DNA of 62,895 nucleotides, the filler included, from Methanobacteriota archaeon (GTDB taxonomy: Archaea; JACRDV01): NCBI GenBank assembly GCA_024860865.1. It is 8 parts of 8 records of this genome, joined end to end, with 100 filler letters (N's around TTAATTAATTAA, not from the genome) between each part and the next. Parts side by side here need not be neighbours in the genome. Positions count along the whole stretch, not along the records: positions 31,533 to 40,104 come from JACRDV010000025.1; 7 more parts are not named here. One strand, 5' to 3'. The position numbers and the translations under genes were made by a program. Shown one piece after another: positions 9,732 to 59,812 of the stretch (position 1 is its first letter; each line of letters starts with the position of its first letter). The notes under the pieces are model-generated. The model worked only from the letters and a program-made list of their open reading frames with translations, did no database searches and had not been told where the DNA came from.

Positions 9732-9831
9732 NNNNNNNNNNNNNNNNNNNNNNNNNNNNNNNNNNNNNNNNNNNNTTAATTAATTAANNNNNNNNNNNNN
9801 NNNNNNNNNNNNNNNNNNNNNNNNNNNNNNN
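9732..9831. other. Artificial contig linker
   Basis: N44-TTAATTAATTAA-N44 (stops in all frames); same linker at 19155-19254, 26080-26179, 31433-31532, 40105-40204, 47382-47481, 59813-59912. Confidence 0.99.
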
Positions 9832-24218: not shown

Positions 24219-24941
24219 ATGCAAAGATATTTAGCAGAATTTATAGGCACATTCATTCTTGTCTTTGCTGGAACTGGGGCTATCGTAATTAATGATCTAA
24301 ATGGGGGAGTTATCTCTCATATCGGGATATCCCTTACCTTTGGACTTGCAGTTCTAATTGTGGTTTGTGCTATAGGACACATATCTGGTGCACATATTAA
24401 TCCCGCTGTGACAATAGCATTCGCGGTTAACAAAAGATTTCCGATATCTTATGTACCTCCTTACTTAGTAGCACAACTCCTTGGTGCTATTTCCGCCTCA
24501 TTTCTGGTCTTTTTACTTTTTGGGAATATATCTAATCTGGGTGGAACCTTCCCAATGAACGGCAACGTAACTCAATCTCTAGTCCTAGAATTCGTCCTAA
24601 CATTTATCCTTATGTTTGTTATTATAGCAGTTGCTACTGATGAAAGGGTTCATGAGTCTGTTGCTGGACCTGCCATCGGACTAACTGTAGCGATGGATGC
24701 ACTTTTGGGCGGACCAATTAGTGGAGGTTCAATGAATCCTGCTAGGTCATTTGGTCCAGCATTAGTAGGAATTAATTTTCAATATCACTGGATATACTGG
24801 CTTGCTCCAATTTTAGGCGCTATAACAGCGACTTTCTTATTTGATTACATAAGAAAAGGGGAAGTACCAAAATGTGTGGATACTGGAGTATTTGGTTGTA
24901 TAGAATGTGAGGTGTATAAAAAGAGAGGCGGTAGAACTTAA
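24219..24941 (+). CDS. MIP-family aquaporin/aquaglyceroporin
   Basis: SGAHINPAVT and GGSMNPARS NPA motifs. Confidence 0.95.
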   Translation: MQRYLAEFIGTFILVFAGTGAIVINDLNGGVISHIGISLTFGLAVLIVVCAIGHISGAHINPAVTIAFAVNKRFPISYVPPYLVAQLLGAISASFLVFLLFGNISNLGGTFPMNGNVTQSLVLEFVLTFILMFVIIAVATDERVHESVAGPAIGLTVAMDALLGGPISGGSMNPARSFGPALVGINFQYHWIYWLAPILGAITATFLFDYIRKGEVPKCVDTGVFGCIECEVYKKRGGRT

Positions 24942-25148
24942 TGGAAGTCTCTAAATCTTTATTTACAATTAACATCAAACATAATAGATAAATCCTGCTC
25001 AATTAGAACTATGTCATTTGACATAAACTTAACGAAAGAAGTAGCAAAAAATTGAGTTCATTTTTAATCAGGTTCACACACATACAAAATATTTAAAAAC
25101 CTAACTTATATAAGAAGCCAATCGGCCATATATCAGCGAGGATTTCTA

Positions 25149-25838
25149 TTGCACGCTGTCATTTCACTTGGTGGTTCCATTTTAGCGCCAGAGAAGTTAG
25201 ATATAAAGTATACTCAAGAAGTTGCTGCCGAACTAAAAAAACTTGTAGAAAAAGGTCATAGCATAATGGTTGTTACAGGTGGAGGAGCTCGAGCTAGGAA
25301 CTACATTGAAGCAGCCCGCCAGCTTAAAGCTTCTGAAGCTTATTGTGACGTAATTGGAATCGAAGTAACTAGATTAAACGCAAGGATATTAATTTCTGCA
25401 CTTGGAAACTCTGCATATCCTGAACCTGCAAAAAATTTTGAAGAAGCTGTCAAATTTTATCGACCTGGCAGAATTGTAGTTATGGGTGGTACGCACATTG
25501 GCCATACCACAGATAGCGTTAGCGCAATGCTTGCGGAATATACTGGAGCAGACTTACTTATAATTGCAACTGATGTCGATGGAATTTATACATCTGATCC
25601 AAAGATTGATCCAAAAGCAAAAAAAATAGATAAAATTTCTGCTAAAGAATTTTCAAAATTTGCCTTAGAGCACGGTCAAGTTGAAGCAGGGTCTACATTT
25701 GTAGTTGATCCACATGCGGCTAAAATTATCGAACGATCAAAGATTAGAACAGTAGTTATAAATGGAAGGAAACTAAATGAGTTTGAACGGATAATCGAAG
25801 GAAAATCTCATACAGGAACTGAAATACTTCCGAGATGA
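25149..25838 (+). CDS. pyrH: Uridylate kinase
   Basis: VISLGGS, VTGGGARAR, GHTTDSV, DVDGIYTSDP. Confidence 0.93.
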   Translation: MHAVISLGGSILAPEKLDIKYTQEVAAELKKLVEKGHSIMVVTGGGARARNYIEAARQLKASEAYCDVIGIEVTRLNARILISALGNSAYPEPAKNFEEAVKFYRPGRIVVMGGTHIGHTTDSVSAMLAEYTGADLLIIATDVDGIYTSDPKIDPKAKKIDKISAKEFSKFALEHGQVEAGSTFVVDPHAAKIIERSKIRTVVINGRKLNEFERIIEGKSHTGTEILPR

Positions 25839-31532: not shown

Positions 31533-31683
31533 ACTTAATTATTGAATTATAAAACAAAAACTTTAGCTTGACCTCTTTTAGCATGTTTCTCTTTTTAGAA
31601 GCCATAACATGCTCTCCAGTTAGCCTTTTAACAGAGGATAGATTTCCTTCAGCATCCCACCTGTAGCCATAGTTATACTTCTT
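31533..31683 (-). mobile_element. IS4/IS5-family transposase C-terminal remnant fused in frame
   Basis: YGYRWDAEGNLSSVKR matches Y-x2-R-x3-E-x6-K, followed by KEVKLKFLFYN. Confidence 0.65.
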
Positions 31684-33111
31684 AGCCACTTTTTCTAAAA
31701 GTTCATACCTATAAGATTTCACTAAGGGATTAAATATGGGTATTTGAAATGCTTTTTTAAGTTGATGAAAACCTTTTATAACAACAAATTTATTTCCTTC
31801 TCGTGTAGTTTCTTGGTGTGACTTAATACCAAGATCCTCTAAAAGTTTTTCAATAAGATCAGAATTCGGATAGCTTTCTATTCCAATTTCCTGTTTTGGT
31901 ACAGAAACCCATCCATCTGAATCCACAATTCCTTGAATGAAGGAAGCCTCAAACTTACGTTGCGCTGTAAAAATCCAATCCATTTTCAACGGCGCATAAG
32001 TTGTTGTCTCATAGTTCTTTAATCCTAACAATACATTAAATATGTATGTGTTAAGAGCAGAACTTTGACTTCGCCAGCAATAAAATTTCCTTTCACCAGA
32101 ATCTATATCGGTAACTCTATGCATTCTTAATCCCATTGCATTAACACATAAACTTACAAACTCTCCAAATCTAAGGTTACTCTTATAATTTTTAGACAAT
32201 TTTAATTCTATGTGAATATTCCCAATGTGCCCTTTTTTTGGTTTGTGCTTGCCACAATCTCCAACTAATGCTCCTAGAAAATAGGCAAAAAATTCATACT
32301 TGTTTTGTTTTATGTCAGTAAGGGAAAGCCCAAATTGTTTTCCCTTTTCAAAAATTTCGTTCAAAGGTTTAAGTTGATCTATAACTCCTTTTACATCTTC
32401 CCAGCGTTTTACAATTATTGGGACTTGAATAAATGGTTTTTCAGGTAATTTAGCTCCTCTAACATTTAAATTTAATAATTGGTGGTACTTTTTTGGTTTT
32501 CCTAACTGTGTATAAATTTCAAAGAAATGCCAAACTTTTGGAAGAGACCTACACGTAACGAACGCTTGAGTTGTTCCTTTTGGTAGGTGAAGCTTCCTAT
32601 CTATGTGCTTAAATTTTTCCCCATTCAAATACAGTTTGAGGCCCTTTAAGAATATTTCAAATCGCCTAATATCTTTTGGTCTTATGGGTTTCCAGTAAAA
32701 ATACTCAAGAAATTGTAAGTTCTTCTTTTTAATGTGATTTAAAAGTCTTTGAATAAGCCTATTTGGCATTTTTGGTGCTATTTTCCTCTTTATTATACCG
32801 AGTTTACGGAAATAAGAGGCTACTGTAGTTGGATGCACTTTATACATACTAGCTATAGTTTTGATGTCGGCATTTCTCTTGTACAATTCTTCCCATTCAT
32901 GTAGCACTTTTCTATTTATTTTAACTGCATATGGTTTGTTTCTTCCACAAAGCCATCTTTTAATTGTGCCGAGTGGAATTTTGAGTTGACTTGCTATTTT
33001 ATGATATTTTAGTTCCTCATTACGGAGTTTTATCGCTTCATTGTAAAGTTTCCTTCTTTTTTCATATAACTTAAATTTCTTCTCTATATCCATCTTGCTT
33101 ATCTTTCTCAC
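31533..33111 (-). CDS. HTH + double-motif LAGLIDADG endonuclease-like protein (no stop before the contig end)
   Basis: N-terminal HTHs (IASQLKIPLGTIKRW; IASMYKVHPTTV); YFLGALVGDCG and FIQGIVDSDGW. Confidence 0.8.
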
Positions 33112-33170
33112 TTCTCACGGATGTTAATGCATCCTTTATTTCTTTTGGTGTAGTGTAAAGCCTATAGTCA

Positions 33171-33345
33171 GTTCTGTTGCATTTTCGAGACTCAACTTTC
33201 CTCCCATCTGCTCACAGCCTTTTTTAAGGGACTGCTCAAAGCTTCAACTGAAGAGGCTATTACGGGCGAACCGCACCCGCTCATCTTGATTATTTTTGCC
33301 TTTCCTTTCCTATACCCATTGGTTTAGCTCATAGCACTTCGAGCA
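33171..33345 (-). ncRNA. Stand-alone TnpB omegaRNA-like element (non-autonomous IS200/IS605-group derivative)
   Basis: Homologous to 39716-39883 (21/22-nt terminal match, 17/18-nt internal match, covarying hairpin); TTATATAT box at 33374-33367. Confidence 0.75.
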
Positions 33346-33521
33346 GGTTCAATATTTAACTTTCAAATATATAAGTTGAGAGAGGTGACCGAAAGTATTT
33401 AGGTTAACTCGGAAAATTCAGAACCATGTTACAAATCTTTTGACATCGGGAAAATTATTCAAAAACGATATCTTCAAATATAAGTTTGAGAACCTCATAT
33501 AGGCAATGTGGGGGTGAAAAT

Positions 33522-33599
33522 TTGAGAAGACGTCCGGAAGGAGAGCCGGAAGAAGAATGGGAAGAAGAATGGGAGGAAGAAGAAGAGGAAGAATGGTAA
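33522..33599 (+). CDS. 25-aa acidic Trp-containing micropeptide
   Basis: GGGGGTGA RBS then TTG; MRRRPEGEPEEEWEEEWEEEEEEEW*. Confidence 0.6.
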   Translation: MRRRPEGEPEEEWEEEWEEEEEEEW

Positions 33600-33828
33600 A
33601 TTTAATTTAATTTGCACTTATTTTAAAATTTATAGTTCATTTTTGTTAAAAATTAATTGTTTTTCGTGTTGTAACACAAAGTATAGATAAGTATGCACAC
33701 CGGAGCGTTCCCATGAATCCTGAACCTATAACTTGTACTATGTACCATACTGGAGTAAACCAACACTAACTAGAAGTCAATGTAGGTAAAATTAAAAAAT
33801 AAACAAAAATGATTTGAAAAGTTAAAAA

Positions 33829-37970: not shown

Positions 37971-39608
37971 TTAAAGCTCTTCCTCACCCGGCGGTGAAGG
38001 CGGAGTCGGTGGTCTGCCTTTTTCCATAGCTGCTGCTGCAATAACATCATCGATTCTAAGAATCATCACTGCTGCTTCAGCTGCTGATTTTATTGCTTGA
38101 GTTTTAACTCTAAGGGGTTCTAAAACTCCTTTATTTATCATATCTACGGCTTTGCCTTCAAAAACATCAAGCCCAACCCACCTGCCATCTGCTTCGTGTT
38201 TTGCCCTGAGTTCGATTAACATGTCAATTGGATCAAGACCTGCATTTTCTGCCAATGATCTTGGGATAACCTCTAGTGAGTCTGCAAAAGCTTCTATAGC
38301 AAGCTGTTCTCTGCCCCCAATTTTCGCAGCATGTGCTCTAAGTTTCTTTGCAAGCTCAATCTCTGGAGCTCCACCACCTGCTACATACTTACCATCCTCT
38401 ATAGCTTTCGATACAACACAGAGTGCATCATGGATACCTCTTTCAACTTCATCAACCACATGCTCAGTTCCGCCTCTGGCAAGAATGCTGACTGCTTTTG
38501 GATCCTTGCAACCCTCAATAAAAGTCATTTCTTCTCCAGCAATCTTTCTCTCTTCTACAGCATCTGCAGAGCCTAAGTCATCTTTTGTTAAGTCTTTAAG
38601 GTTTGTAATTATTTTTCCACCAGTTGCTCTTGCAAGTTTTTTCATGTCAGATTCTGAAACTCTCTTAACTGCAAAAATTTCTTCCTTTGCTAGATAATGC
38701 TCAGCAAGATCATCAATACCTTTCTGGCAAAAAACTACATTTGCTCCGCTGGCTTTTATTTTTTCAACCATCTCTCTGAGCATTTTTTCTTCTTCAGCAA
38801 GAAAGGCTTTTAATTGATCTGGATCAGTAATTCGAATCTCTGCACTAACTTCAGTCTTTTTAACTTCGAGCGCTACAGCGAGCAAAGCAATTTTTGCATT
38901 ATCAACCCTTAAAGGCATCCCAGAATGGGCCCTTTCTTTATCAAAAACAATGCCTTTAATCAGCTGAGTATCTCCAATGCTTGCGCCCTGTTTCTTTTCA
39001 ACTTTGATATTATCTATGTCGACTCCAATTTTTTCATCTGTTTTTTCCATAACTTGCTTAACCGCTTGAACAGCTATTCTAGCAAGATATTCTCCTGCAA
39101 TTTCAACTTCTCTGCCACTCATAGAAGTTACTGCAATTTTCTTTAAGATATCTTCTTGGTCTGGTGAGACATTTTCTGCAATTTGATTTAGTATTTTTAT
39201 GCACTCTTCTGCGGCCATTCTATAGCCTTTAGTTATTACACTGGAGTGGATTTCTTGATCGAGCAATCCCTCCGCTTTTTTGAGAAGCTCTCCGGCTAGA
39301 ACAACTGCAGTTGTAGTTCCATCTCCAACTTCTTCATCTATAGTTTCTGCGACTTCAACCATCATTTTAGCAGCTGGATGCTGGATGTCCATTTCTTTTA
39401 GTATTGTTACTCCATCGTTAGTAATAACCACATCTCCTAAACTGTCTACTAACATTTTGTCCATACCCTTAGGACCTAATGTTGTTCTAACTGCTTCAGC
39501 AACAACTCTAGCAGCTAGAATATTCATCCTTTGAGCATCGCGCCCAAGGAAGCGCTGGGCCTTTTCAGGCAAGATCAACACTGGTTGACCACTTAATTGA
39601 GTTCCCAT
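37971..39608 (-). CDS. ths: Thermosome (group II chaperonin) subunit
   Basis: [24 protein letters not shown]. Confidence 0.97.
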
Positions 39609-39715
39609 TTTCTCCCTCCAAAAATCAAGTTTTGAGCGTTAAATGTAATGTTACTATAAATAGTTTTATCATCCGATTAAAAGTTTTTGGCAAGTATTAA
39701 ATATTTAGGTGCTAT

Positions 39716-39883
39716 GTTCTGTTGCATTTTCGGGACTTGAAAAATAATTTTTTCTCATCTGCCCACAGCCTTTAATGCAACTTCTGGGCTTAGGCTCGGC
39801 GGATTAGAGTTCATTGATCCCCCGTTCCGCTTCAACACTGCATTTGCCCAGCTATCTGGAGTGAACCGCACTCCTTCATCTTG
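39716..39883 (-). ncRNA. TnpB omegaRNA scaffold / element right end overlapping the tnpB 3' end
   Basis: Hairpin GGAGTG-CGGTT-CACTCC; ends ...CGAAAATGCAACAGAAC, shared with 33171-33192. Confidence 0.75.
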
Positions 39884-40104
39884 GGTTTTTAACAAATTGA
39901 TTGCAGCATTAAGCTGCCTGTCTATTAATCCACACTTGGGGCAGCTTGCAAGGTGTACATTCAAGTATTCCAAATTTGACCCACATATCGTGCACCTTTG
40001 CGAAGTCCCCTTTGGGTTTACTTCGATTATTTTGGCTCCTTCCCAGAGAGCTTTATACTTTATAAAATTTTGAAGCCTCCTCATGCAAGCTTGGTTTAGC
40101 CTTC
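39755..40104 (-). mobile_element. tnpB: IS200/IS605-group TnpB C-terminus (5' lost at contig end); RuvC-III reads DRQ
   Basis: IKYKA...VNPKGTSQRCTICG...CPKCG..DRQLNAAINL. Confidence 0.9.
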
Positions 40105-40204
40105 NNNNNNNNNNNNNNNNNNNNNNNNNNNNNNNNNNNNNNNNNNNNTTAATTAATTAANNNNNNNNNNNNNNNNNNNNNNNNNNNNNNNNNNNNNNNN
40201 NNNN

Positions 40205-59521: not shown

Positions 59522-59812
59522 TGATAATTCCTACTGGAATCCCGGGTTTAGATGCCCTATTAGGTGGTGGATTTAAATCAAGTTCGAATATTCTTGTAGC
59601 AGGTCCACCTGGCTCAGGTAAATCGATTTTAAGCAGGCAAATTCTGTACGATGGGTTGAATAAAGGCTTTTCTTCAGTTTATATTACTGTTGATGAGCCC
59701 CCACAGCAAATTCGCGAGAATATGATTAGCTTCAAATGGGATATATCCAAATTCGAGCAACAAAATTCGTTCAGATTTATCGACGCCTTTACTTGTTTGC
59801 TTGGAGAGTTTG
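59521..59812 (+). CDS. KaiC/RAD55-family ATPase, 3' partial
   Basis: TGIPGLDALLGGG; GPPGSGKS. Confidence 0.88.

What the first reader, a model, noticed from the sequence alone, without database searches (positions are those of the whole stretch)
33150..33374. Stand-alone TnpB omegaRNA with its own promoter and a different guide
Seen: on the minus strand, 33288-33171 is homologous to the tnpB 3' end at 39883-39716 on the same contig. Both end in GTC(T/C)CGAAAATGCAACAGAAC (21/22 nt over the terminal block) and then diverge abruptly: TGACTATAGGCTTTACACTAC here, ATAGCACCTAAATATTTAATAC there. The first hairpin covaries (CGGGTG-CGGTT-CGCCCG vs GGAGTG-CGGTT-CACTCC). Its GTTC can pair with the terminal GAAC. 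A TTATATAT box at 33374-33367 sits upstream, and no tnpB ORF is present. Known: TnpB omegaRNAs end at the element right end, form a pseudoknot next to the guide, and use the flank as guide. Inference: this is a separately transcribed guide RNA that could load a TnpB in trans, giving one protein several guides.
Basis: partly seen in the sequence, partly recalled or inferred. Interest (0 to 1): 0.8.

Follow-up and report, generated by a model that had tools for sequence, protein, structure and literature searches.

The report
Gene-less transposon remnant keeping guide RNA
This is the right-end piece of a degraded TnpB transposon that has lost its nuclease gene but keeps a well-preserved guide-RNA scaffold, a kind of stand-alone guide already described for these elements.

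Summary
A covariance model built only from 12 tnpB-linked omegaRNAs of metagenomic relatives hits window 33171-33287(-) over its full length (84.1 bits, E about 1e-17). No tnpB ORF lies upstream. The scaffold keeps 46 of 48 family-invariant bases.

Upstream is a decayed relic of the last ~30 tnpB codons, with two in-frame stops. The 48 nt next to the RNA start keep only 8 of 18 conserved bases (Fisher p 1e-5). So the RNA has been preserved while the gene decayed.

The relatives are ~1.3-kb tnpB-only elements. They have 14-28-nt terminal inverted repeats and 7-9-bp flanking direct repeats that follow a T-rich motif. Other archaeal genomes hold protein-less derivatives of 212-534 nt made of left end plus complete omegaRNA.

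The window copy looks like one of these, but has no clean left end or target duplication. Its "guide" is simply the DNA flanking the right end.

Use in trans by a TnpB is plausible and consistent with the preservation. It is untested: no RNA data, no genome, and the only tnpB in the window is a fragment of another omegaRNA subtype.

Stand-alone omegaRNAs acting in trans are already published. This is a new member of a known kind.

The parts
33171..33287 (-). Complete omegaRNA scaffold (short-form subtype) ending at the transposon right end
   Evidence: R1 gives 84.1 bits, E 9.7e-18, model 1-127. 46 of 48 family-invariant positions are kept. The cmsearch alignment marks 4 non-standard pairs among the 27 model pairs.
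33263..33279 (-). First hairpin (6-bp stem, loop holding the invariant GGTTC)
   Evidence: Helix 1 has 5 of 6 pairs with compensatory change across 33 sequences.
33170..33170 (-). Last base of the right-end tip (T here; C in 22 of 22 metagenomic relatives; T or A in some genomic copies)
   Evidence: L089 ends ..GAACT, L094 ends ..GAACA.
33150..33169 (-). Guide-equivalent flank directly 3' of the right end
   Evidence: The sequence diverges from the other copy here. There is no second close copy in the window (one 3-mismatch match at 59657-59672, within chance) and no 18-mer match in viral contigs.
33288..33381 (-). Decayed relic of the last ~30 tnpB codons (second CxxC of the zinc finger onward), with in-frame TGA and TAG
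   Evidence: tblastn. In-frame peptide scores 51 against a shuffle mean of 27.4 and maximum of 46, 0 of 200. A DNA profile of this coding stretch does not detect it at E<=10. 8 of 18 conserved positions are kept in the last 48 nt.
33367..33374 (-).
   Evidence: Promoter activity was not tested.
33450..33494 (-). Left-end-like segment (GGTTCT tip plus A/T-rich stretch)
   Evidence: It aligns to the left end of the 260-nt derivative L092 with score 17; 0 of 300 shuffles reach this, and 7 left ends were tried. It is not detected by the left-end HMM or as an inverted repeat of the orphan's own right end. No flanking direct repeat.
33403..33425 (-). Second left-end-like tip (GGTTCTGAATTTTCCGAG...), not statistically supported
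   Evidence: Seen by eye. Alignment to the reverse complement of the orphan's right end scores 8, against a null of 8.4-9.2.
39716..39882 (-). tnpB-linked omegaRNA (long-form subtype with a ~48-nt insert in the terminal hairpin resembling the orphan's 3' half)
   Evidence: R1 gives 74.6 bits. Compared with L007 and L016 and with the orphan.
39755..40104 (-). 3' fragment of tnpB, cut by the contig end
   Evidence: PF07282, E 2e-18. 70-76% identical to six of the seven full-length homologues of 403-418 aa, 55% to the seventh. Linker at 40105.
39694..39714 (-). Guide-equivalent flank of the tnpB-linked copy
   Evidence: An X2 contig follows the window up to 39714 and then departs.

Best explanation
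Window 33171-33287(-) is the omegaRNA-plus-right-end module of a tnpB-less derivative of an archaeal TnpB insertion sequence. It is a stand-alone omegaRNA of the MITE or PATE kind.

Shown:
- The parent family consists of ~1.3-kb elements carrying only tnpB.
- They are bounded by terminal inverted repeats (left tip GGTTCTG..., right tip ...CAGAACC).
- They are usually flanked by 7-9-bp direct repeats that follow a T-rich motif.
- The omegaRNA overlaps the tnpB 3' end and stops at the right tip, so whatever DNA follows the tip becomes the guide.
- In the window copy the gene is gone except for about 30 decayed codons with stops.
- Left-end-like fragments lie 100-200 nt upstream, but no intact left tip or target duplication remains.
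- The RNA scaffold is nearly perfect at family-invariant positions.

Inferred:
- The RNA is read from an A/T-rich, left-end-derived or fortuitous archaeal promoter upstream.
- It is bound in trans by a TnpB made elsewhere in the genome.
- It directs that TnpB to T-rich-motif-flanked copies of its 3' flank, meaning alleles lacking the insertion. This favours retention or copying of the remnant, as proposed for protein-less omegaRNA elements.
- This copy probably can no longer transpose.
For: Scaffold identity:
- Independent model R1 gives 84.1 bits over its full length.
- The family structure is supported on 33 sequences: 92.4% of cells paired against 70.5% in shuffles (0 of 500), 19 of 27 pairs with changes on both sides, and 39-48% when the partners are slid.

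No gene in cis:
- No ORF over 62 aa in 33115-33828.
- TnpB homologues match only 33381-33259, weakly.
- The in-frame relic is significant (score 51, 0 of 200 shuffles) and keeps the family's 9-codon spacing to QDE.

Preservation contrast:
- 46 of 48 invariant omegaRNA positions kept. Among the 21 sequences not used to build the model, only one scores higher and one ties.
- Only 8 of 18 conserved positions kept in the 48 nt just upstream, against 18 of 18 in the window's tnpB. Fisher p 1e-5.

Element type:
- Inverted-repeat scores of 14-28 in 11 of 17 metagenomic loci examined, and 7-9-bp direct repeats in 9 of those 11.
- R1 found 14 matches in 6 of 151 genomes. Only 2 have an unbroken tnpB. 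Seven have a left-end inverted repeat that gives whole-element lengths of 212, 223, 260, 353, 422, 534 and 990 nt.
- Flanking 8-bp repeats match 8/8, 8/8, 8/8, 7/8, 7/8 and 5/8 in six of these seven. TTTT lies just 5' of the left repeat in all six.

Left-end trace in the window: the L092 left end aligns at 33494 (score 17, 0 of 300 shuffles).

Right-end boundary: an X2 contig (2127 nt) follows the window from 38526 to 39714 and then runs on for 936 nt unlike it. That is 1-2 nt from the tip of the neighbouring element.

Precedent: stand-alone omegaRNAs working in trans (PMC10691335) and PATEs encoding omegaRNAs.
Against: - No intact left end. The orphan's own right end has no significant inverted partner within 1.5 kb (score 8, null 8.4-9.2. 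One search gave only a low-complexity match).
- A left-end HMM finds nothing upstream, and no flanking direct repeat is visible. It is therefore not a clean MITE.
- The one significant left-end alignment came from 7 trials.
- Preservation of the scaffold could come from gene conversion by other copies rather than selection on this copy. The last ~57 nt are suspiciously close to the neighbour's.
- The neighbouring tnpB carries the other (long-form) omegaRNA subtype, so compatibility is unknown.
- In the probable source run the orphan region lies at baseline summed contig depth (3.9-7.0) while the tnpB 3' end reaches 63.8. This is a weak hint that no close short-form copy is abundant there.
- Folded alone the orphan is not unusually stable (z +0.82).
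- No transcript evidence of any kind.
Confidence: 0.6

Rival explanations
1. Inert debris. It is a truncated right end left by deletion or recombination, neither transcribed nor bound by TnpB. Its good state reflects recent origin or gene conversion from active copies.
For: - No left tip, no target duplication and no significant inverted repeat.
- Decayed and fragmentary copies are the majority in related genomes: 11 of 14 R1 matches lack an unbroken tnpB and one more is cut by a contig end.
- The 3' 57 nt resemble the neighbouring copy, which suggests sequence exchange.
- No other copy of the upstream region occurs in any held locus.
Against: - A recent origin does not fit the heavy decay of the adjacent coding relic: two stops, catalytic D/R/N/A positions lost, and 12 of 48 nt matching the consensus.
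- The scaffold keeps 46 of 48 invariants, whereas clearly decayed copies keep 31-40 of 48.
- Gene conversion would need a short-form donor, and none is seen in the window.
Confidence: 0.35
2. Domesticated guide-RNA gene serving the host, for example steering a nuclease-dead or active TnpB to regulate or defend against a specific target, as in TldR-type systems.
For: The scaffold is preserved without tnpB in cis. It sits 60-80 nt upstream of, and on the same strand as, an HTH/LAGLIDADG-like ORF.
Against: - The guide-equivalent flank has no second close match in the window and none in viral contigs.
- The locus could not be compared in relatives; the best orthologue of the neighbouring gene is 45% identical among 401 genomes.
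- In run X2 the downstream gene region is largely uncovered, so the neighbourhood is variable rather than conserved.
- The only TnpB seen keeps the family's zinc-finger and RuvC-III consensus residues in the fragment available.
Confidence: 0.04
3. Chance resemblance or a conserved protein-coding fragment, not an RNA element.
For: Single-sequence folding is unremarkable. Rfam has no family for it: 0 matches at gathering score and only a chance SNORD49 match elsewhere in a laxer scan.
Against: - R1 E-value of about 1e-17 with full-length alignment.
- All frames over 33171-33381 are broken by stops.
- Compensatory changes occur in 19 of 27 pairs in the family.
Confidence: 0.01

Closest known systems
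Stand-alone omegaRNAs of OMEGA systems (Altae-Tran et al. 2021, as summarised in PMC10691335; passages read)
   Same: An omegaRNA with no effector or transposase in cis, in a genome that also holds an effector-bearing locus. Reported to work in trans and to add target sites.
   Different: Here trans use is untested. The cis tnpB remains are still visible as a decayed relic. The only effector seen nearby carries another omegaRNA subtype.
PATE-like protein-less IS200/IS605 elements encoding omegaRNAs in Geobacillus stearothermophilus (Meers et al. preprint 10.1101/2023.03.14.532601; passages read)
   Same: Minimal non-autonomous elements that keep the transposon ends and an omegaRNA, and must borrow TnpB (and a transposase) in trans.
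   Different: PATEs have the asymmetric hairpin ends of IS200/IS605 and make no target duplication. This family has terminal inverted repeats and 7-9-bp flanking repeats. The window copy also lacks a clean left end.
DDE-transposase-associated TnpB branches with inverted terminal repeats, and solo TnpBs flanked by the same ends (PMC10691335, section 9; read)
   Same: tnpB within 250 bp of a symmetrical transposon end. tnpB-only copies presumably mobilised in trans.
   Different: No transposase gene was found next to any of the elements examined here. The main text of that paper names only IS630. Its supplements, which may list this clade, could not be opened.
IS6-family terminal inverted repeat (IS257 GGTTCTGTTGCAAAGTT, PMC4856351; IS6/IS1216 repeat, PMC2920175)
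   Same: The first 12 nt (GGTTCTGTTGCA) equal the tip of several of these elements, including the reverse complement of both window right ends apart from the outermost base. An 8-bp duplication is typical of IS6; that point is recalled and comes from no call.
   Different: An IS6-type DDE domain (PF13610) was found in only 1 of 5 element-bearing genomes, and without matching ends. The link is a resemblance only.
TldR, domesticated TnpB acting as RNA-guided transcription factor (PMC10705468; search listing and abstract only)
   Same: A guide RNA used outside the transposon life cycle.
   Different: No sign here of a conserved host target, of an inactivated TnpB, or of a conserved neighbourhood.

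Membership tests
TnpB omegaRNA (this archaeal clade) | Sequence and secondary structure match omegaRNAs that overlap tnpB 3' ends | tested here: met
   R1, built from 12 tnpB-linked copies, gives 84.1 bits over its full length. 46 of 48 invariants are kept.
TnpB omegaRNA (this archaeal clade) | Scaffold ends at the transposon right end and is followed by a variable flank that acts as guide | tested here: met
   The scaffold ends in ...CAGAAC plus 1 nt, like all 22 relatives, and the flank diverges after it. The boundary of the sister copy is confirmed by the X2 contig.
TnpB omegaRNA (this archaeal clade) | Transcribed and bound by TnpB | not testable with these tools
   No RNA holder was listed. 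No genome is held.
Stand-alone omegaRNA / protein-less non-autonomous element (MITE or PATE type) | No effector ORF in cis | tested here: met
   only a roughly 30-codon relic with stops.
Stand-alone omegaRNA / protein-less non-autonomous element (MITE or PATE type) | Both transposon ends present, with signs of mobilisation (target duplication, multiple copies) | tested here: not met
   No significant left tip or inverted repeat. No direct repeat. No other copy in the window or the held loci. One left-end-like alignment exists. Counterparts in other genomes do meet this feature.
Stand-alone omegaRNA / protein-less non-autonomous element (MITE or PATE type) | Compatible effector encoded elsewhere in the same genome | tested here: inconclusive
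   One tnpB fragment lies 6.4 kb away, with a long-form omegaRNA that shares hairpin 1 and the last ~57 nt. The rest of the genome is not available.
IS200/IS605 family (IS1341 group) | Asymmetric ends with subterminal hairpins, no terminal inverted repeats, no target duplication | tested here: not met
   Relatives have 14-28-nt terminal inverted repeats and 7-9-bp flanking repeats.
IS6-family-type ends | GG..CTGTTGCA inverted-repeat tip, 8-bp duplication, and an IS6 DDE transposase in the genome | tested here: inconclusive
   The tip matches the published repeat over 12 nt and 8-bp repeats are seen. PF13610 was found in only 1 of 5 genomes, without matching ends. These MAGs are incomplete.
Domesticated guide RNA (TldR-like) | Conserved locus and a guide matching a host or mobile-element target | tested here: not met
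   No target in the window or in viral contigs. No close relative was available for a synteny test.

The most novel reading that the evidence does not exclude
The orphan may be a selectively maintained, trans-acting guide belonging to a TnpB clade that rides transposons with inverted repeats and target duplications (IS6-like tips) rather than IS200/IS605 elements. These would insert exactly 8 bp downstream of a TTTT motif, so that motif plus duplication plus flank rebuilds a TnpB target at every empty site. Derivatives of 212-534 nt that keep only the left-end promoter region and the entire omegaRNA would then be guide-only parasites of both an unseen transposase and TnpB. The shared 57-nt guide-proximal module of the two window copies would mark module exchange that lets one TnpB read both RNAs.
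Probability: 0.25. Interest if true: 0.6.

Novelty: new member of a known kind. Interest (0 to 1): 0.4.

Why it matters
For the finding itself: it adds an archaeal example of an omegaRNA that outlives its nuclease gene. A sharp preservation boundary falls exactly at the RNA's 5' end. This is indirect evidence that such RNAs stay useful, at least to the element, when TnpB is supplied in trans.

For the family: the ends do not fit IS200/IS605. They consist of inverted repeats, 8-bp duplications and a T-rich motif directly before the duplication. This suggests RNA-guided homing coupled to a different, still unidentified transposition chemistry, and it points to a candidate T-rich TAM for these compact archaeal TnpBs.

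Tried and rejected
Genome and earlier notes:
- Whole-genome searches were impossible because no genome is held.

RNA families: Rfam gave no family at gathering score. A laxer scan gave only a chance SNORD49 match.

Genome-contig scan with the 21-nt end motif:
- It gave one hit, in a Nitrosopumilus MAG.
- That locus has no tnpB upstream. That genome has no TNB domain, and R1 does not match the locus.
- I treat the hit as chance; my own estimate of the expectation is about 0.5.

Left end of the orphan: its own inverted repeat and a left-end HMM were both negative.

Coding relic: a DNA profile of the tnpB coding stretch did not detect it. Only the protein-level test did.

Sequencing runs:
- No RNA holder was listed.
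- In the laid contigs, the X2 and X3 pieces around 33190-33460 are short, end at 33290 and 33364, and may come from paralogous copies.
- No empty-site or presence call could therefore be made for the orphan locus.

Guide searches:
- The orphan guide has no exact 18-mer in viral contigs.
- The neighbour's guide has 4 matches, none preceded by TTTT (one by CTTT). I judge them chance for an A/T-rich 18-mer.

Other searches:
- IS6 transposase co-occurrence: found in 1 of 5 genomes, without matching ends.
- Orthologous-locus test: the best orthologue of the adjacent phosphoesterase is 45% identical among 401 genomes, so no close relative was reached.
- Metagenome records behind the loci could not be searched as wholes.
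- An apparent inverted-repeat pair at window 24351-25750 spans two ordinary ORFs and is taken as chance.

Literature: two searches for TnpB together with IS6 ends found nothing relevant. Supplements of PMC10691335 were not available and may already list this clade.

Full report
**1. What is in the sequence**

The window is not one molecule. It is 8 contigs joined by N44-TTAATTAATTAA-N44 linkers, with 36.3% G+C. Both features of the finding lie on one 8.6-kb contig (31533-40104). The surrounding genes are ordinary archaeal chromosomal genes:
- thermosome, a PIN_6 domain protein, a phosphoribosyltransferase, a class IV aminotransferase, a winged-helix protein and a calcineurin-like phosphoesterase;
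- FtsZ on the next contig.

The 'tnpB' at 39755-40104(-) is only the last ~115 codons, cut by the contig end. It carries the TNB/zinc-finger domain (PF07282, E 2e-18). It is 70-76% identical to six of the seven full-length proteins found (403-418 aa) and 55% to the seventh.

They share CAAGATGA, then a hairpin with different stems around a common loop, then a well-matched last ~57 nt. The terminal 21 nt differ at one base, and the sequences diverge completely after GAAC. The terminal 17-mer occurs exactly twice in the window, against 0.29 expected at up to 3 mismatches.

**2. Independent test that the orphan is an omegaRNA**

A scan of metagenome contigs with a TnpB alignment returned 80 loci. 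In 22 of them I located the tnpB 3' end and the sequence beyond it. All 22 end in ...AGAAC (one in GGAC, one in CGAAC) followed by C, and their flanks then differ.

Two subtypes are visible:
- a short form of 122-129 nt (12 loci);
- a long form with an extra central stem (L004, L005, L007, L016, and the window's tnpB-linked copy).

The 12 short-form copies gave a consensus structure of 27 pairs, 14 of them with compensatory changes. From these I built covariance model R1, which contains neither window copy.

R1 results:
- With filters off over the whole window, the orphan scores 84.1 bits (E 9.7e-18, model positions 1-127). The tnpB-linked copy scores 58.5 bits, or 74.6 bits for 39716-39882 with default filters. 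Nothing else exceeds 12.5 bits.
- On an alignment of 33 copies, 92.4% of cells form standard pairs, against 70.5% in shuffles (0 of 500). 19 of 27 pairs change on both sides. Sliding the partners gives 39-48%.

Against this, the orphan folded alone is no more stable than shuffles (z +0.82), and Rfam has no matching family. The pseudoknot is therefore compatible with the data but not tested by covariation.

**3. What lies upstream**

No ORF over 62 aa exists between 33115 and 33828. TnpB homologues match only 33381-33259. In the frame continuous with the QDE codons that open the omegaRNA, the translation reads like the second CxxC of the zinc finger and what follows. It has in-frame TGA and TAG stops and keeps the family's 9-codon spacing to QDE.

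With the omegaRNA part excluded, this peptide scores 51, against a shuffle mean of 27.4 and maximum of 46 (0 of 200). The other two frames score at the null. A DNA profile of the same coding stretch from 16 loci finds the window's real tnpB (E 1.2e-19) but not this relic at E<=10. The relic is therefore real but heavily decayed.

**4. A sharp preservation boundary**

At the 48 positions invariant in the 12 model sequences, the orphan keeps 46. Among the 21 sequences not used to build the model, only one scores higher (48) and one ties (46). Visibly decayed copies keep 31-40.

In the 48 nt immediately upstream of the RNA start, the orphan keeps 8 of 18 near-invariant positions and matches the consensus at 12 of 48. 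The window's tnpB keeps 18 of 18 and matches at 32 of 48. Fisher p is 1e-5 for 46/48 against 8/18.

The gene has therefore decayed while the RNA has not. That fits either selection on the RNA after loss of the gene, or repeated gene conversion from intact copies. It does not fit a very recent truncation.

**5. What kind of element this is**

The relatives do not look like IS200/IS605.
- In 11 of 17 metagenomic loci examined, the sequence 50-70 nt upstream of the tnpB start is the reverse complement of the right end over 14-28 nt (left tip GGTTCTG..., right tip ...CAGAACC).
- In 9 of those 11, the element is flanked by a 7-9-bp direct repeat. More tnpB loci show such repeat pairs spaced 1260-1320 nt apart.
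- The left end carries a TTTAAATA-like box about 25-30 nt inside the tip and about 30 nt before the start codon. I read this as the tnpB promoter; that is inference.

R1 run over 151 genomes of the phylum of handle G001 matched 14 places in 6 genomes:
- 2 have an unbroken tnpB;
- 3 have tnpB in pieces across frames;
- 3 have internally deleted tnpB;
- 4 have no TnpB similarity beyond the last codons;
- 1 has only an N-terminal piece;
- 1 is cut by a contig end.

Seven of these have a left-end inverted repeat, giving whole-element lengths of 212, 223, 260, 353, 422, 534 and 990 nt. In six of the seven the flanking 8-bp repeats match 8/8, 8/8, 8/8, 7/8, 7/8 and 5/8, and TTTT lies directly 5' of the left repeat in all six. 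In the metagenomic loci the same position is T-rich (TTTT, CTTT, GTTT, TTTA and similar).

Protein-less 'left end plus whole omegaRNA' derivatives are thus a regular product of this family. Because a T-rich motif plus the duplicated 8 bp plus the flank is exactly what the guide would recognise, an empty site would be a TnpB target. That last step is inference.

**6. How the window copy compares**

It has the right-end half in excellent state but no clean left half.
- Its own right end has no significant inverted partner within 1.5 kb.
- A left-end HMM finds only the two right ends, in reverse.
- No flanking direct repeat is seen.
- One of 7 genuine left ends (L092) aligns to 33494-33450 with score 17, which 0 of 300 shuffles reach.
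- Several further GGTTCT/TTCTCAA-like fragments lie between 33530 and 33360.

I read this as a derivative whose left side has been rearranged or degraded. It is probably no longer mobile.

**7. The neighbouring copy**

In run X2 a 2127-nt contig follows the window from 38526 to 39714, with 30 other letters. It then continues for 936 nt that do not lie on the window, which is 1-2 nt from the right tip at 39716. This confirms the boundary. It also shows that the tnpB element is absent or different at this site in a related population.

The neighbour's omegaRNA is the long form up to GAAGTTGCA. A ~48-nt segment resembling the orphan's 3' half then precedes the shared tip. It looks chimeric.

**8. 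Function**

Shown: a scaffold of the right family, no gene in cis, preserved better than its surroundings, and a flank-derived guide.

Not shown: transcription, a promoter, or a partner protein. No RNA run was listed. The guide-equivalent flank has no second close match in the window and no exact 18-mer in viral contigs. The neighbour's guide has four matches that look like chance.

The most likely working model is the published one. Stand-alone omegaRNAs can be loaded in trans (PMC10691335), and protein-less elements encoding omegaRNAs depend on TnpB from other elements (Meers et al. preprint). Whether the only TnpB seen here accepts a short-form scaffold is open, because its own RNA is long-form.

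**9. Comparison with what is known, and novelty**

The concept is already in print, so the finding is a new member of a known kind. The family's end structure departs from IS200/IS605. DDE-associated TnpB branches with inverted terminal repeats are reported (PMC10691335, section 9), but the main text names only IS630.

The tip GGTTCTGTTGCA equals the first 12 nt of the IS6-family repeat. However, an IS6-type DDE domain was found in only 1 of 5 element-bearing genomes and without matching ends. Two literature searches found no paper linking TnpB to IS6 ends. Supplements were closed.

**10. Verdict**

| Item | Verdict |
|---|---|
| Observation | confirmed |
| Interest | 0.4 |

Noticed in passing
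Loci L004-L019 (metagenome) and L086-L094 (genomes G042, G075, G086, G114, G118): The tnpB-only relatives are bounded by 14-28-nt terminal inverted repeats and by 7-9-bp direct repeats. A T-rich motif (TTTT in 6 of 6 genomic cases) sits directly 5' of the left repeat. These are not IS200/IS605-type ends. An empty site would read motif plus guide target.
   Followed up: partly
Reverse complement of the right ends at window 33171-33190 and 39716-39735; L024, L043, L052, L053: The element tip GGTTCTGTTGCA equals the first 12 nt of the published IS6-family inverted repeat (IS257, IS1216). PF13610 was found in only 1 of 5 element-bearing genomes, without matching ends.
   Followed up: partly
window 39716-39790 (-): The tnpB-linked omegaRNA looks chimeric. 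It is a long-form scaffold up to GAAGTTGCA, followed by about 48 nt that resemble the 3' half of the short-form orphan, then the shared tip. The tnpB reading frame ends inside this segment.
   Followed up: partly
window 39714/39715: An X2 contig (2127 nt) matches 38526-39714 and then runs on for 936 nt unlike the window. The tnpB element is absent or replaced at this site in a related population.
   Followed up: partly
window 39827-40104: Summed contig depth in run X1 is 63.8, against 4-8 over most of the contig. This suggests many tnpB copies in that community and would explain why the contig breaks inside tnpB. The tool warns that summed depth is not a copy number.
   Followed up: no
window 31533-33111 (-): An ORF of at least 526 aa with weak HTH_23, HTH_40 and LAGLIDADG_3 matches starts 60-80 nt downstream of the orphan on the same strand and is cut by the contig end. 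Run X2 hardly covers 32391-32962, so this gene may be variable or mobile.
   Followed up: no
window 33525-33599: A GAA/GAG-rich 12-15-nt periodic repeat (5 copies). It shows length differences in run X2: GAA inserted after 33548, and 1 and 5 nt missing at 33510 and 33610.
   Followed up: no
window 33360-33530 (-): A cluster of four short left-tip-like fragments (TCTTCTCAAA, GGTTCTCAAAC, GGTTCTGAAT, TCTCTCAAC) lies upstream of the orphan. Its origin is unexplained (stacked or rearranged ends?).
   Followed up: partly
L001 1313-1334 (Nitrosopumilus MAG): An exact 21-nt match to the orphan's right tip, followed by C, with no tnpB nearby and no R1 match. It is either chance or a solitary element tip.
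   Followed up: partly
window, whole: The window is 8 contigs joined by artificial N/TTAATTAATTAA linkers at 9732, 19155, 26080, 31433, 40105, 47382 and 59813. ORFs that appear to cross them are artefacts.
   Followed up: yes
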